From assembly GCF_003334305.1 (NCBI RefSeq), contig NZ_QOWS01000056.1: a stretch of 2,216 bases of DNA; one strand, written 5' to 3'. Below, piece by piece: positions 1 to 2,216 of the stretch. How positions within the stretch are numbered: position 1 is the stretch's first letter; the number at the start of each line of letters is the position of its first letter. The notes under the pieces were generated by a model. It ran no database searches. It was not told the DNA's origin and saw only the letters and a program-made list of their open reading frames with translations. Made by a program: the position numbers and the translations under genes. This DNA comes from Escherichia coli (GTDB taxonomy: Bacteria; Pseudomonadota; Gammaproteobacteria; Enterobacterales; Enterobacteriaceae).

Positions 1-33
1 AGAAATATGTTCCATCAATTTTTTAAGTTCCAT
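1..33 (-). CDS. First 11 codons ([11 protein letters not shown]) of a further H-rpt transposase ORF that runs leftward out of the window; unknown whether it is full-length or another truncated copy
   Basis: Positions 1..44 are identical to 381..424 and 761..804, including the ATG (31-33) and the Shine-Dalgarno (38-44). Confidence 0.4.
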   Translation of the reverse strand, partial: MELKKLMEHIS

Positions 34-158
34 TTGTTCACCTTATTTATGTAAGGAGTATTTGATCATGTATAAGCAATAAAAAACAGCTTCAGGTAAT
101 GAGGAATATCTCAATTTTTAAACATAAAATGCGAATTATTTAGTACAAAAAAGTAGCG

Positions 159-413
159 TTACGTGATCTTTCCCTGGGATACAACTCTGGCAATGGTATC
201 GTGAACAGGAATACCATTTTCAAAATCACCATATTGCTTCAAAAAATCGAGATGTGTTTCCCCGAAATCCTCTATATCTTCCCAACCTTCTGCACCAGAA
301 ATAACGGCACAAATAGTCAACAGTAGAATATCTGACAATTTATGCACCACTTTCCAGGCTTGTCTGTAATCGGGGGTAATAGAAATATGTTCCATCAATT
401 TTTTAAGTTCCAT
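159..413 (-). CDS. Truncated ISAs1-family (H-repeat-associated) transposase, N-terminal fragment, 84 aa; second identical copy created by the tandem duplication
   Basis: Nucleotide sequence identical to 539..793 (the 380-bp unit is repeated exactly). Same Shine-Dalgarno and start context. Confidence 0.8.
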
Positions 414-417
414 TTGT

Positions 418-424
418 TCACCTT
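418..424 (-). promoter_or_regulatory. Shine-Dalgarno (AAGGTGA) for the H-rpt ORF starting at 413
   Basis: Identical to 798-804; 4-nt spacer to the ATG. Confidence 0.5.
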
Positions 425-538
425 ATTTATGTAAGGAGTATTTGATCATGTATAAGCAATAAAAAACAGCTTCAGGTAATGAGGAATATCTCAATTTTTA
501 AACATAAAATGCGAATTATTTAGTACAAAAAAGTAGCG

Positions 539-793
539 TTACGTGATCTTTCCCTGGGATACAACTCTGGCAATGGTATCGTGAACAGGAATACCATTTT
601 CAAAATCACCATATTGCTTCAAAAAATCGAGATGTGTTTCCCCGAAATCCTCTATATCTTCCCAACCTTCTGCACCAGAAATAACGGCACAAATAGTCAA
701 CAGTAGAATATCTGACAATTTATGCACCACTTTCCAGGCTTGTCTGTAATCGGGGGTAATAGAAATATGTTCCATCAATTTTTTAAGTTCCAT
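539..793 (-). CDS. Truncated ISAs1-family (H-repeat-associated, H-rpt) transposase, N-terminal fragment only, 84 aa; probably non-functional as a transposase
   Basis: Residues 1-79 ([79 protein letters not shown]) match, from memory, the N-terminus of E. coli H-repeat proteins (YhhI/YdcC-like, about 378 aa). The ORF then ends after 5 unrelated codons (QGKIT-stop), so the DDE catalytic region is absent. An AAGGTGA Shine-Dalgarno lies 4 nt upstream of the ATG. It resembles my recollection of the 84-aa YbfQ (unverified). Confidence 0.8.
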
Positions 794-797
794 TTGT

Positions 798-804
798 TCA
801 CCTT
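798..804 (-). promoter_or_regulatory. Shine-Dalgarno (AAGGTGA) for the H-rpt ORF starting at 793
   Basis: Minus strand reads ataAAGGTGAacaaATG. Identical elements at 418-424 and 38-44. Confidence 0.5.
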
Positions 805-1018
805 ATTTATGTAAGGAGTATTTGATCATGTATAAGCTATGAAAAACAGCTTTAGACAATAAGTAGTATCTCAATTGTTGAACTTAAAATTCGAATTATT
901 TAGTACAAAAAAGTAGCGTTACGTGATCTTTCCCTGCAAATGGAACGCAAAATAAACACCTATTCCATGAGTTATATAATTTTTCACAATGATTAATTTG
1001 TTTTCTCAGGAAGAGATT

Positions 1019-1588
1019 TTATTTCTCTTCACTACGAATTAGTTCATGCTGTATCTTTATTAAACATTCGTAAGACTCATTTTTGTTCGGGAGATGTGCT
1101 GTCATTCGAGCATAAGTTGGTTTCTCATCTTTAAAATATTTTACCATGATTGAATTATCAAGGACTGCCAACAACTGAACTGGATCACTGCTCTTTTTTT
1201 GATAGATACCCGCTCTTATATAACTTCTAAACCGATCGCCGAGAAACGCCGTTTTTTCTGCTGTATTTATCAACTCCTGCAACGTTCCTTTGATGGCATG
1301 ATTTTCATTAAGGCGTAGTGACCCGACGCGAATTAAGAGTCTCGCCCCGCTTGGTGTGAATTTATTATTTTTACATGTACCCAGTTCTGTTTGCCAATAA
1401 TACTCACCGATGTCCTCATTCTGATACCATCTCCACATGGCTTTATTATTTAAGACAGGAAACGCGGAAAAAATAGTACCCTTAGCGAAAATAGTAAAAC
1501 AATCATGATCTTTAGCTTGTATTTCGCAATCAGCTATAACACCAAAACTAACAAATATCATCAGCAAAAAGAACAAAACTCTTTTCAT
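1019..1588 (-). CDS. Candidate Rhs immunity protein, secreted/periplasmic (N-terminal signal peptide), 189 aa
   Basis: Intact 189-aa ORF whose ATG (1586-1588) overlaps the toxin stop TGA (1585-1587) as ATGA. A GAGG Shine-Dalgarno lies 9 nt upstream. The N-terminus [24 protein letters not shown] has basic residues, a hydrophobic core and a small-residue cleavage region. The gene is AT-rich (about 30 percent GC in a sampled stretch). Immunity role is inferred from position and coupling only. Length and signal peptide resemble my recollection of E. coli YbfC (unverified). Confidence 0.7.
1532..1588 (-). other. Predicted Sec signal peptide (residues 1-19) of the 189-aa ORF
   Basis: [19 protein letters not shown] followed by DCEIQ. 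No canonical lipobox (Asp precedes the Cys), so signal peptidase I cleavage is more likely than lipoprotein processing. Confidence 0.55.
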
Positions 1589-2216
1589 TTTCTTATTCCT
1601 CTCGATGTTCTCTGTTTCATTTTAGCTAAAATTTCACCCAAATCATCTATCCCTGCTGTTGCTGGCCCATCGGGTTTATTAATGTCTGGGAATAAATAGG
1701 GTTCTGCACAAGTATATCCTGGTGGTAATTGAGTTGTTGGCCAATTTGTCTGTGGCAGGTAATCACTTGCTGTCTTTGTATCCATCCCTGGATACTGGGA
1801 ATCATCCTGTGGCGTACAAGTCAGATTTGGTTTTACCCACTTCCTGCAATACAGTGTGTAGTCGTAAGGGCTTAATACTCTGAAGAATGTTTTGAAAACA
1901 TTAGGCGCACTACTGGCCTGGTCAATAGGATATGGCAGTCTTAATTGTTTCGCTATGTCCGGCAATTTACTTGGATCGGGCGTAGGCGGTTTGTTGGGTC
2001 TCGCTCCATATCCGCCATTATTTAAGTGTCCATATTTTGATGCCAGTCCCATTGAATCTATATACTGAACCGGATTCAGCGGATACTGATAAAAATTCCA
2101 TCCCCCCTTCAGCCCAATCGGATCCTGAGTGATATACCTCCCCTGCAGCGGGTCATAATAGCGGTGGCGGTTGTAATACAGGCCGGACTCCTCATCATAC
2201 TGCTGCCCCGGCAGCC
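1585..2216 (-). CDS. Rhs-family polymorphic toxin, 3' portion: end of the conserved Rhs core fused to a variable C-terminal (toxin) domain; 5' end lies beyond the window
   Basis: Minus-strand translation of 2214..2044 gives [57 protein letters not shown] with no stop codon back to the window edge. This is the hallmark C-terminal end of Rhs/YD-repeat cores (established knowledge). The frame continues uninterrupted to TGA at 1585-1587. The supplied ORF (1585..2052) begins at an internal Met only because the true start is outside the window. Confidence 0.85.
1588..2043 (-). other. Variable Rhs C-terminal domain (Rhs-CT, candidate toxin), 152 aa, activity unassigned
   Basis: Sequence immediately after the demarcation motif: [50 protein letters not shown]...[22 protein letters not shown]. 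Pro-rich with 3 Cys. I see no recognisable nuclease, deaminase or other catalytic motif by eye. Position after the core demarcation is where polymorphic toxin domains sit (established knowledge). Confidence 0.6.
1597..1602 (-). promoter_or_regulatory. Shine-Dalgarno (AGAGGA) for the 189-aa ORF, embedded in the 3' end of the toxin CDS
   Basis: Minus strand reads cgAGAGGAataagaaaATG, with 9-nt spacing from GAGG to the ATG. Confidence 0.5.
2044..2216 (-). other. Conserved C-terminal segment of the Rhs core, including the core/CT demarcation motif region
   Basis: Contains DPIGL followed 21 residues later by [10 protein letters not shown], a PxxxxD-x-GL demarcation motif. The segment is markedly GC-rich (about 59 percent by hand count of 2101-2216) compared with everything downstream. 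Confidence 0.8.

What the first reader, a model, noticed from the sequence alone, without database searches (positions are those of the whole stretch)
1019..1588. Signal-peptide-bearing candidate immunity gene coupled to the toxin by an ATGA overlap
The 189-aa ORF starts on ATGA overlapping the toxin stop and has its Shine-Dalgarno inside the toxin coding sequence, the typical tight toxin-immunity arrangement. It carries a Sec-type signal peptide and 4 Cys, and the toxin domain has 3 Cys. An exported immunity protein implies the toxin acts in the periplasm or on the envelope (cell wall, membrane or periplasmic substrate) rather than on cytoplasmic nucleic acids. The compartment and target are inference.
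Basis: inference. Interest (0 to 1): 0.55.

Follow-up and report, generated by a model that had tools for sequence, protein, structure and literature searches.

The report
Exported immunity gene ybfC of Rhs toxin

Summary
A 189-aa ORF lies on the minus strand at 1588..1019. It starts in an ATGA that overlaps the stop of an Rhs C-terminal toxin ORF, and a GAGG Shine-Dalgarno sits 9 nt upstream. It has an N-terminal signal peptide and 4 Cys; the toxin tip has 3 Cys.

The window is the E. coli K-12 RhsC element: the orphan Rhs tip ybfO, then ybfC, then ISAs1 fragments.

Neither protein matches Pfam, NCBIfam or PDB sequences. The pairing is nevertheless very well supported. At every locus examined that carries this toxin-tip family, a YbfC-family gene follows immediately. 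These loci come from E. coli, Citrobacter, Kluyvera, Phytobacter, Acidovorax, Ralstonia, Paracidovorax and several metagenome contigs. The gene's start overlaps or closely abuts the toxin's stop, usually by 4 nt.

Toxin and YbfC identities change together and independently of the Rhs core. All homologues keep a signal peptide. Cys30 and Cys175 are invariant, and Cys21 and Cys72 are gained or lost together, which implies two periplasmic disulfides and SPase I processing rather than lipidation.

The best reading is a periplasmic beta-sandwich immunity protein for a periplasm-acting toxin, which is predicted to be uncommon among Rhs effectors. The gene is already annotated ("putative secreted protein"), and its O157 counterpart appears to have been called an Rhs immunity gene in silico. 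The toxin's biochemistry remains unknown. Interest is moderate.

The parts
1019..1588 (-). ybfC ORF (189 codons plus TAA stop at 1021..1019), the candidate periplasmic Rhs immunity protein
   Evidence: ORF list. Identical to WP_000832338.1 'protein YbfC' in K-12 and other E. coli. The family alignment has 45 invariant columns among 21 Enterobacteriaceae sequences.
1532..1588 (-). Signal peptide codons 1-19 ([19 protein letters not shown]), predicted SPase I cleavage after V-I-A
   Evidence: Heuristic analysis. An N-terminal signal peptide is present in all homologues, including Burkholderiales ones. The lipobox pattern is not met: D is at position -1, and the Cys is absent in remote members.
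1022..1531 (-). Mature domain (residues 20-189), a predicted beta-sandwich with two helices. Cys codons: C21 1528..1526, C30 1501..1499, C72 1375..1373, C175 1066..1064.
1585..1588 (-). ATGA: the ybfC start codon overlapping the toxin stop codon (translational coupling)
   Evidence: The same AAATGA junction is found in E. coli, Citrobacter, Kluyvera, Phytobacter and Acidovorax loci and in metagenome and draft-genome loci L011, L014 and L019. Ralstonia L025 has CGATGA.
1597..1602 (-). Shine-Dalgarno AGAGGA for ybfC, inside the toxin's codons R-G (of the C-terminal R-G-I-R-K)
   Evidence: A GGAG/AGGA-like element lies at the same distance in nearly all homologous loci.
1585..2043 (-). 152-aa polymorphic Rhs C-terminal toxin tip (ybfO-CT) plus TGA stop. 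Uncharacterised family with 3 invariant Cys, no conserved His and no hydrophobic segment.
   Evidence: Translation. No Pfam, NCBIfam or PDB match. An exhaustive HMM search found 27 representatives; every one that retains sequence upstream of the toxin domain shows the Rhs core end. Family invariants are listed.
2044..2214 (-). End of the conserved Rhs core, running off the window, with the demarcation motif [10 protein letters not shown] at 2073..2044
   Evidence: NCBIfam RHS_core and Rhs_assc_core hits on residues 1-57. Annotated 'RHS repeat-associated core domain-containing protein, missing N-terminus' in K-12.

Best explanation

Proposed mechanism:
1. ybfC is translated by coupling to the toxin ORF. 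Its SD lies in the toxin's last codons and its ATG overlaps the toxin's TGA.
2. The product is exported by Sec and cleaved by signal peptidase I after V-I-A19.
3. It folds in the periplasm into an about 170-aa beta-sandwich held by two disulfides (C21-C72 and C30-C175).
4. There it binds and neutralises toxin tips injected by neighbouring cells.

It follows that the toxin acts in the periplasm or on the envelope. The toxin has three invariant Cys of its own, no membrane-spanning segment and no conserved His. Its biochemical activity is unknown.

In K-12 the pair is an orphan. A different tip (followed by ybfB) has displaced it from the main rhsC gene, leaving a non-deliverable toxin fragment (ybfO) and an intact ybfC that can still be expressed. 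The likely role of that ybfC is to protect against attack by the many E. coli strains whose full-length RhsC carries this tip.

Shown here: the anatomy, the conserved linkage, the co-variation, and the conservation of the signal peptide and cysteines. Inferred: export, the disulfides, binding and neutralisation, and the toxin's compartment.
For: (1) Identity. The window is the K-12 RhsC element: rhsC-ybfB-[orphan Rhs fragment]-ybfC-ISAs1 fragments.

(2) Full-length context. The identical ybfC follows a full-length 1399-aa Rhs protein with a 4-nt overlap in strain Ec40743. Homologues follow full-length 1379-1384-aa Rhs proteins in Citrobacter and Kluyvera at different chromosomal sites, some next to vgrG.

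(3) Remote toxin relatives. An exhaustive profile search with the toxin tip found only 27 representatives. Each remote one that retains sequence upstream of the toxin domain has an Rhs core end. Every remote locus retrieved has a YbfC-family ORF directly downstream: L011 (and the identical L012/L013), L014, L015/L016, L017/L018, L019 and L020. Scores against the YbfC HMM are 33-132 bits.

(4) Other genera. The same arrangement holds in Phytobacter, Acidovorax, Ralstonia and Paracidovorax (73-379 bits).

(5) Negative control. In L019 the main Rhs protein has an unrelated tip and an unrelated downstream protein.

(6) Co-variation. Tip/YbfC identities are 100/100, 99/100, 82/82 and 71/70. Core identity is unlinked: 90% core with 71/70, and 63% core with 82/82.

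(7) Coupling. The SD plus AAATGA junction is conserved.

(8) Export signals. All homologues have a signal peptide. C30 and C175 are invariant. C21 and C72 are present together or absent together.

(9) Immunity retention. In L005 the immunity ORF is intact next to a frameshifted orphan tip. L019 has an extra stand-alone paralogue. The module is in 3518 of 5426 complete E. coli genomes.

(10) Fold. The model is a confident-enough beta-sandwich. Foldseek independently finds relatives in Paracidovorax valerianellae and Delftia. P. valerianellae is an organism in which the toxin search also found the tip.

(11) Literature. ybfC is listed as a 'putative secreted protein' co-upregulated with rhsC (PMC6033998). 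ybfOC is listed as one operon (PMC3946193).
Against: - There is no experimental evidence for toxicity, protection, binding or export.
- The signal peptide was judged by heuristics and conservation only; SignalP and LipoP were not available.
- The toxin tip gave no usable structure (pLDDT 37) and matches no family, so its target is unknown. The 'periplasmic target' rests on the immunity protein's predicted location and the conserved cysteines.
- In O157:H7 strain FRIK2455 the full-length RhsC toxin is intact but ybfC is frameshifted within the signal-peptide codons. Producers can therefore live without it. This is compatible with a toxin that is harmless in the producer's cytoplasm, but it also shows the gene is dispensable when the T6SS is silent.
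- K-12 has only a truncated toxin fragment and, from general knowledge rather than any test here, no T6SS. In this genome the pair is not a working weapon.
Confidence: 0.75

Rival explanations
1. YbfC is an immunity protein but a membrane-anchored one. It would be either a lipoprotein acylated on Cys21 or a type II protein retained by an uncleaved signal anchor, rather than a soluble periplasmic protein.
For: Cys21 lies directly after the hydrophobic segment and is invariant in Enterobacteriaceae. Several homologues read (L/I/M)-(A/S/G)-(A/S)-C, which resembles a lipobox core. L011 and L014 read S-A-L-A-C.
Against: The PROSITE-style pattern gives no match at Cys21 in any family member; the single hit, in P0023, falls on a different Cys (C15). 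Remote homologues lack this Cys altogether and end their signal peptides in AxA-type sites. C21 is lost only together with C72, which points to a C21-C72 disulfide. That is incompatible with a lipid-modified thiol.
Confidence: 0.12
2. YbfC is not an immunity protein. It would be an exported accessory factor of the Rhs tip (for example an activator, receptor-like partner or co-effector), or an unrelated secreted protein that merely travels with the tip.
For: No protection assay exists. O157:H7 keeps the toxin with a frameshifted ybfC. PMC7216683 notes that putative Rhs immunity proteins might have other roles.
Against: Strict adjacency and joint divergence with the tip across two proteobacterial classes are the signatures of immunity genes of polymorphic toxins. 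So are the conserved translational coupling, the retention of intact copies next to decayed or absent toxins, and the stand-alone extra paralogues. A periplasmic protein cannot chaperone a cytoplasmically loaded T6SS effector. Known Rhs chaperones (EagR) are encoded upstream, per the literature cited.
Confidence: 0.07
3. The hydrophobic N-terminus is not a functional export signal. YbfC would stay in the cytoplasm and neutralise a cytoplasm-acting toxin, as for most Rhs tips.
For: [quoted passage not shown] No export prediction program was run.
Against: The n-h-c architecture with an AxA-type site is kept in every homologue although its sequence is not conserved. Paired, co-varying cysteines are typical of proteins that fold in an oxidising compartment. 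The toxin also has three invariant Cys. An intact toxin with a disrupted ybfC in O157:H7 would be hard to tolerate for a cytoplasm-acting toxin.
Confidence: 0.05

Closest known systems
Rhs-CT / RhsI toxin-immunity modules and their orphan arrays (Poole et al. 2011, PMC3150448; Koskiniemi et al. 2013/2014 as cited therein)
   Same: The tip begins right after the PxxxxDPxGL-type motif of the Rhs core. A small gene follows it directly. Tip and downstream gene are swapped as a unit. There is an orphan copy lacking the N-terminal delivery region but with an intact immunity gene capable of expression.
   Different: The characterised RhsI proteins are cytoplasmic and block nucleases or other intracellular toxins. 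YbfC carries a signal peptide and disulfide-type cysteines. Neither YbfC nor the tip shows sequence similarity to any characterised pair.
Periplasmic immunity proteins of periplasm-acting T6SS effectors (Tai/Tsi for Tae amidases, Tgi for Tge, Tli for Tle lipases, Tldi1 for Tlde1)
   Same: An exported or lipid-anchored small protein is encoded next to the effector. The producer is protected only against incoming toxin. A disulfide requirement of periplasmic effectors is known (PMC5792426, listed). Inferring the target compartment from an immunity signal peptide is standard in the field.
'RhsCI' (locus z0853) of EHEC EDL933, proposed in silico (PMC7216683)
   Same: It is at the same chromosomal locus. 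The paper's rhsC-specific primer matches window 1981-2000. The paper states that RhsC in the corrected EDL933 genome is z0847 fused to z0851, and it names the small ORF downstream of it as the putative immunity gene. A full-length RhsC carrying this tip was seen directly in another O157:H7 strain, FRIK2455.
   Different: That paper reports no signal peptide, compartment or family for RhsCI, only a non-significant TPR hit. I could not verify that z0853 is exactly ybfC. In O157:H7 FRIK2455 ybfC is frameshifted.

Membership tests
Rhs polymorphic toxin / immunity module | The toxin tip starts after the conserved Rhs core end (PxxxxDPxGL-type motif) | tested here: met
   The Rhs_assc_core hit ends at residue 57. 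The motif [10 protein letters not shown] is followed by the 152-aa tip.
Rhs polymorphic toxin / immunity module | A small gene lies immediately downstream of the tip, linked to it wherever the tip occurs | tested here: met
   All loci examined with this tip family carry a YbfC-family ORF whose start overlaps or closely abuts the toxin stop. In L019 an unrelated tip has an unrelated partner.
Rhs polymorphic toxin / immunity module | Tip and immunity gene diverge or exchange as one unit, independently of the core | tested here: met
   Pairwise identities, for example core 90% with tip 71% and YbfC 70%, and core 63% with tip 82% and YbfC 82%.
Rhs polymorphic toxin / immunity module | The tip is toxic, and the downstream protein specifically binds and neutralises it | not testable with these tools
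   This needs expression, rescue and pull-down experiments. No multimer prediction was available.
Rhs polymorphic toxin / immunity module | Association with a delivery system (vgrG / T6SS genes) | tested here: met
   vgrG (Phage_GPD/Gp5) lies directly upstream of the Rhs array in L002/L003. VgrG, DUF2169 and PAAR-like genes are next to L011. This was not shown for K-12 itself.
Exported (periplasmic) T6SS immunity proteins | N-terminal Sec signal peptide | tested here: met
   n-h-c architecture with V-I-A before the cleavage site, conserved in every homologue. The test was heuristic only; SignalP was not available.
Exported (periplasmic) T6SS immunity proteins | Demonstrated periplasmic localisation | not testable with these tools
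   Indirect support only, from conserved and co-varying Cys pairs.
Exported (periplasmic) T6SS immunity proteins | Homology to a described immunity family (Tai, Tsi, Tli, Tgi, Pfam Imm*/SUKH etc.) | tested here: not met
Bacterial lipoproteins | Lipobox [LVI][ASTVI][GAS]-C at the end of the signal peptide, with the Cys conserved | tested here: not met
   K-12 has I-A-D-C. The PROSITE-like pattern fails at Cys21. The Cys is absent in remote homologues and co-varies with C72.

The most novel reading that the evidence does not exclude
The ybfO-CT / YbfC pair would define a previously undescribed family of periplasm-acting Rhs toxins with a new biochemical activity. The toxin is small, Pro-rich and probably disulfide-dependent, with three invariant Cys, no catalytic His, no membrane segment, and no similarity to amidase, muramidase, lipase or pore-forming effectors. 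The family is present in about two thirds of E. coli genomes, including K-12 and O157:H7, and reaches Burkholderiales. Rhs cages would then also deliver envelope-targeting cargo, and a new envelope target could be found with K-12 genetics.
Probability: 0.3. Interest if true: 0.6.

Novelty: new member of a known kind. Interest (0 to 1): 0.35.

Why it matters
[quoted passage not shown] A tip whose immunity protein is exported marks a rarer, envelope-acting class.

This pair sits in the best-studied bacterium, is carried by 65% of complete E. coli genomes, and belongs to toxin and immunity families with no Pfam model or solved structure. It is therefore a cheap, well-defined entry point for finding a new antibacterial activity or envelope target. 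It could also explain why toxin-less strains keep ybfC, as orphan immunity.

The gene and its likely role are not new ideas, however, and nothing about the arrangement departs from the standard logic of polymorphic toxins.

Tried and rejected
- Pfam, NCBIfam and PDB sequence searches gave nothing significant for YbfC or the tip, as single sequences or as narrow and broad profiles.
- AlphaFold2 on the toxin tip with an 8-sequence alignment failed (pLDDT 36.9), so no fold search was run on it.
- Word-index searches with YbfC, alone and as a profile, stayed within Enterobacteriaceae. Remote homologues were reached only indirectly: through the toxin profile and then the neighbouring genes, and by Foldseek.
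- Literature searches for ybfC and ybfO found no functional study.
- The lipoprotein reading was considered and rejected.
- A papain/NlpC-type Cys-His amidase reading for the toxin was considered and rejected, because no His is conserved in the family.
- A pore-forming reading is made unlikely by the lack of any hydrophobic segment in the tip (maximum 19-residue Kyte-Doolittle mean 0.27) and by a soluble rather than integral-membrane immunity protein.
- The promoter/terminator scan gave counts at chance level.

Full report
**What is in the window.**

The window matches the E. coli K-12 chromosome at 99.5% over its full length (strain GM4792). At least 80% of it is present in 3188 of 5426 complete E. 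coli genomes. The annotation of that record, read on the window's minus strand, is as follows:
- rhsC (full length) and ybfB;
- an 'RHS repeat-associated core domain-containing protein, missing N-terminus' (the K-12 gene ybfO);
- ybfC;
- truncated ISAs1 (H-repeat) transposase fragments (ybfQ, ybfD).

The finding's coordinates, 1019-1588, are exactly ybfC on the minus strand.

**Check of the observation.**

The ORF runs 1588..1019 and encodes 189 aa. The upstream ORF leaves the window at 2214. Its first 57 residues are the end of the Rhs core (NCBIfam RHS_core E 7.7e-32; Rhs_assc_core E 2.5e-20), ending in [11 protein letters not shown] 152-residue tip follows, ending R-G-I-R-K-stop.

The junction reads ...AGAGGAATAAGAAAATGAAAAGA. 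The ybfC ATG overlaps the toxin's TGA (ATGA, 1588..1585), and GAGG lies 9 nt upstream.

YbfC starts [19 protein letters not shown]|DCE. It has a basic n-region and a 15-residue hydrophobic core (12-residue Kyte-Doolittle mean 3.05). Small residues sit at -3 and -1, and there is no further hydrophobic segment. It has four Cys (21, 30, 72, 175); the tip has three. The only missing detail was the strand.

**No family assignment.**

Neither protein matches Pfam-A or NCBIfam beyond the Rhs core, and neither matches any PDB sequence, even with family profiles at E<=10.

The toxin tip could not be modelled (pLDDT 36.9).

**Is ybfC really tied to this toxin tip?** This is the core of the interpretation, and it holds on five counts.

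(i) Within E. coli, the tip plus ybfC is a single-copy module in 3518 of 5426 complete genomes. In strain Ec40743 the identical YbfC follows a full-length 1399-aa Rhs protein with the same 4-nt overlap at the same kdp-ybfA...ybgA locus. K-12 ybfO/ybfC is therefore a tip displaced from the main gene by a newer tip (followed by ybfB). This is the classical orphan arrangement described for Rhs and CDI loci (PMC3150448).

(ii) YbfC homologues of 58-65% identity in Citrobacter and Kluyvera follow full-length 1379-1384-aa Rhs proteins. These are at other chromosomal sites, or in an orphan array behind vgrG, and they carry tips homologous to the window's tip.

(iii) An exhaustive HMM search of 1.84 billion representatives with the tip profile found only 27 proteins. 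Each remote one that retains sequence upstream of the toxin domain has an Rhs core end; the shorter ones are tip-only fragments. I retrieved contigs for six of them. In every case the next gene is a YbfC-family member, scoring 33-132 bits against the Enterobacteriaceae YbfC HMM.

(iv) A scan of one genome per species with the tip motif found the tip in Phytobacter, Acidovorax, Ralstonia and Paracidovorax. Each again has a YbfC-family ORF overlapping the toxin's stop (73-379 bits). Foldseek with the YbfC model had independently picked uncharacterised proteins of about 190 aa from Paracidovorax valerianellae and Delftia.

(v) L019 is a natural control. Its main Rhs protein has an unrelated Gly-rich tip followed by an unrelated membrane protein. 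The orphan copy of our tip in the same array is followed by a YbfC homologue plus one extra stand-alone paralogue.

**Co-variation.**

Tip and YbfC identities move together and are uncoupled from the core:

| Comparison | Rhs core identity | Tip identity | YbfC identity |
|---|---|---|---|
| Two Citrobacter alleles (L004 vs L005a) | 90% | 71% | 70% |
| Citrobacter L005a vs Kluyvera L006 | 63% | 82% | 82% |

Identical tips go with identical YbfC (100/100, 99/100). This is the behaviour expected of a toxin and its specific immunity protein.

**Translational coupling is conserved.**

An SD-like GGAG/AGGA element followed by AAATGA recurs at nearly all loci, including the beta-proteobacterial ones. 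One side effect is that the toxin's nearly invariant C-terminal G-x-R-K is encoded by the same bases as the immunity gene's ribosome-binding site and start. Its conservation may therefore reflect the RNA signal rather than the protein.

**Export.**

All homologues, down to 21% identity, begin with a signal peptide whose sequence is not conserved but whose architecture is.

In the broad alignment C30 and C175 are invariant. C21 and C72 are both present in Enterobacteriaceae, L011 and L014, and both absent in L015, L017 and the two L019 copies. They are also absent in L020, L024, L025 and L026. The simplest reading is two disulfides, C21-C72 and C30-C175, that is, a protein that folds in the oxidising periplasm.

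This also argues against lipidation of C21. K-12 has D at -1, and the lipobox pattern does not match at C21 in any family member. Remote members end their signal peptides in AxA-type sites several residues before the first Cys.

SignalP and LipoP were not available, so export remains a prediction. It agrees with the existing label 'putative secreted protein' for ybfC (PMC6033998).

**What this says about the toxin.**

The family has three invariant Cys and several invariant aromatic, Pro and acidic positions (S58 P59 Y62 Y65 C66 W69 C76 D94 P107 G109 C112 P115 F118 A130 D134). It has no conserved His and no hydrophobic segment.

These features fit a soluble, disulfide-containing periplasmic effector. 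They do not fit a Cys-His amidase or a pore former. Its activity cannot be inferred with the present tools.

The O157:H7 lineage offers an indirect hint. In strain FRIK2455 the full-length RhsC carrying this tip is intact, while ybfC has a +1 T insertion in the T-run at codons 5-6, inside the signal peptide. A second O157:H7 assembly shows the same 1029-nt match length. A producer that tolerates the toxin without immunity is easier to understand if the toxin is harmless in the cytoplasm. The same fact shows that ybfC is dispensable when no sibling attack occurs.

**Comparison with what is known.**

Functionally this is a standard Rhs-CT/RhsI module with an orphan copy (PMC3150448). The exported immunity protein resembles the Tai/Tsi/Tgi/Tli logic of periplasm-acting T6SS effectors, but there is no homology to any of them.

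The gene is long annotated. ybfOC is listed as an operon (PMC3946193). An in-silico study of EHEC named the ORF downstream of the corresponding full-length RhsC as 'RhsCI', without noting a signal peptide or finding any homologue (PMC7216683). I found no experimental work on ybfC or ybfO in the searchable literature.

A bioinformatic survey predicts that Rhs effectors act almost exclusively intracellularly, with about 20% of VgrG-linked ones acting periplasmically (bioRxiv 10.1101/2024.02.26.582050). This pair would therefore belong to a minority class.

**Verdict.**

ybfC is best explained as a Sec-exported, disulfide-bonded periplasmic immunity protein for an uncharacterised, periplasm-acting Rhs toxin tip (confidence about 0.75). 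In K-12 it is an orphan module.

It is a new, unmodelled member of a known kind of system, not a new kind. Interest is moderate at 0.35. The toxin's unknown activity is the part worth pursuing.

Noticed in passing
window 1-936: A 380-bp unit is repeated in tandem 2.5 times at 97% identity. Each copy carries an 84-codon ORF on the minus strand (159..413, 539..793) that is the N-terminal fragment of an ISAs1/H-repeat transposase (ybfQ). K-12 BW25113 has one ybfQ copy and K-12 GM4792 has two, so the window shows a local tandem amplification that differs between K-12 sublines.
   Followed up: partly
L028 5001-5571 (E. coli O157:H7 FRIK2455); corresponds to window about 1571-1574: ybfC is frameshifted by a +1 T, plus a C>T change that creates a T9 run, at codons 5-6 inside the signal peptide. 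The upstream full-length 1399-aa RhsC with this toxin tip is intact. A second O157:H7 genome shows the same 1029-nt match length. A homopolymer tract at this position could also make expression phase-variable.
   Followed up: partly
window 1585-1602 and the equivalent junctions in L004, L006, L011, L019, L023-L025: The toxin family's conserved C-terminal G-x-R-K-stop is encoded by the same bases as the immunity gene's Shine-Dalgarno and ATGA start. The conservation of these toxin residues may be an RNA-level rather than a protein-level constraint.
   Followed up: partly
L005 7175-8004: In Citrobacter portucalensis a full-length Rhs protein with its YbfC-type gene (194 aa) is followed by a second, orphan tip of a different allele. 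That tip is broken by a frameshift, but its own YbfC-type gene (193 aa) is intact. This looks like immunity retention after toxin decay.
   Followed up: partly
L019 1-5976: One Rhs array (NCBI assembly GCA_024809975.1) combines two parts. The first is a main Rhs protein with an unrelated Gly-rich tip and a membrane-protein partner. The second is an orphan copy of the ybfO-type tip with a YbfC homologue and a further stand-alone YbfC paralogue (108 bits) that has no toxin in front.
   Followed up: partly
L021, L022: Short contigs in MAGs labelled 'Candidatus Nanosynbacter sp.' and 'Flavobacterium psychrophilum' encode the tip at 98-99% identity to E. coli. They are almost certainly E. coli contamination of those bins.
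   Followed up: no
window 1000-1700: ybfC and the toxin tip are AT-rich (33-42% G+C), rising to about 47% only towards the Rhs core at the window's end. This is the usual sign that Rhs tips and their partners are imported modules.
   Followed up: no
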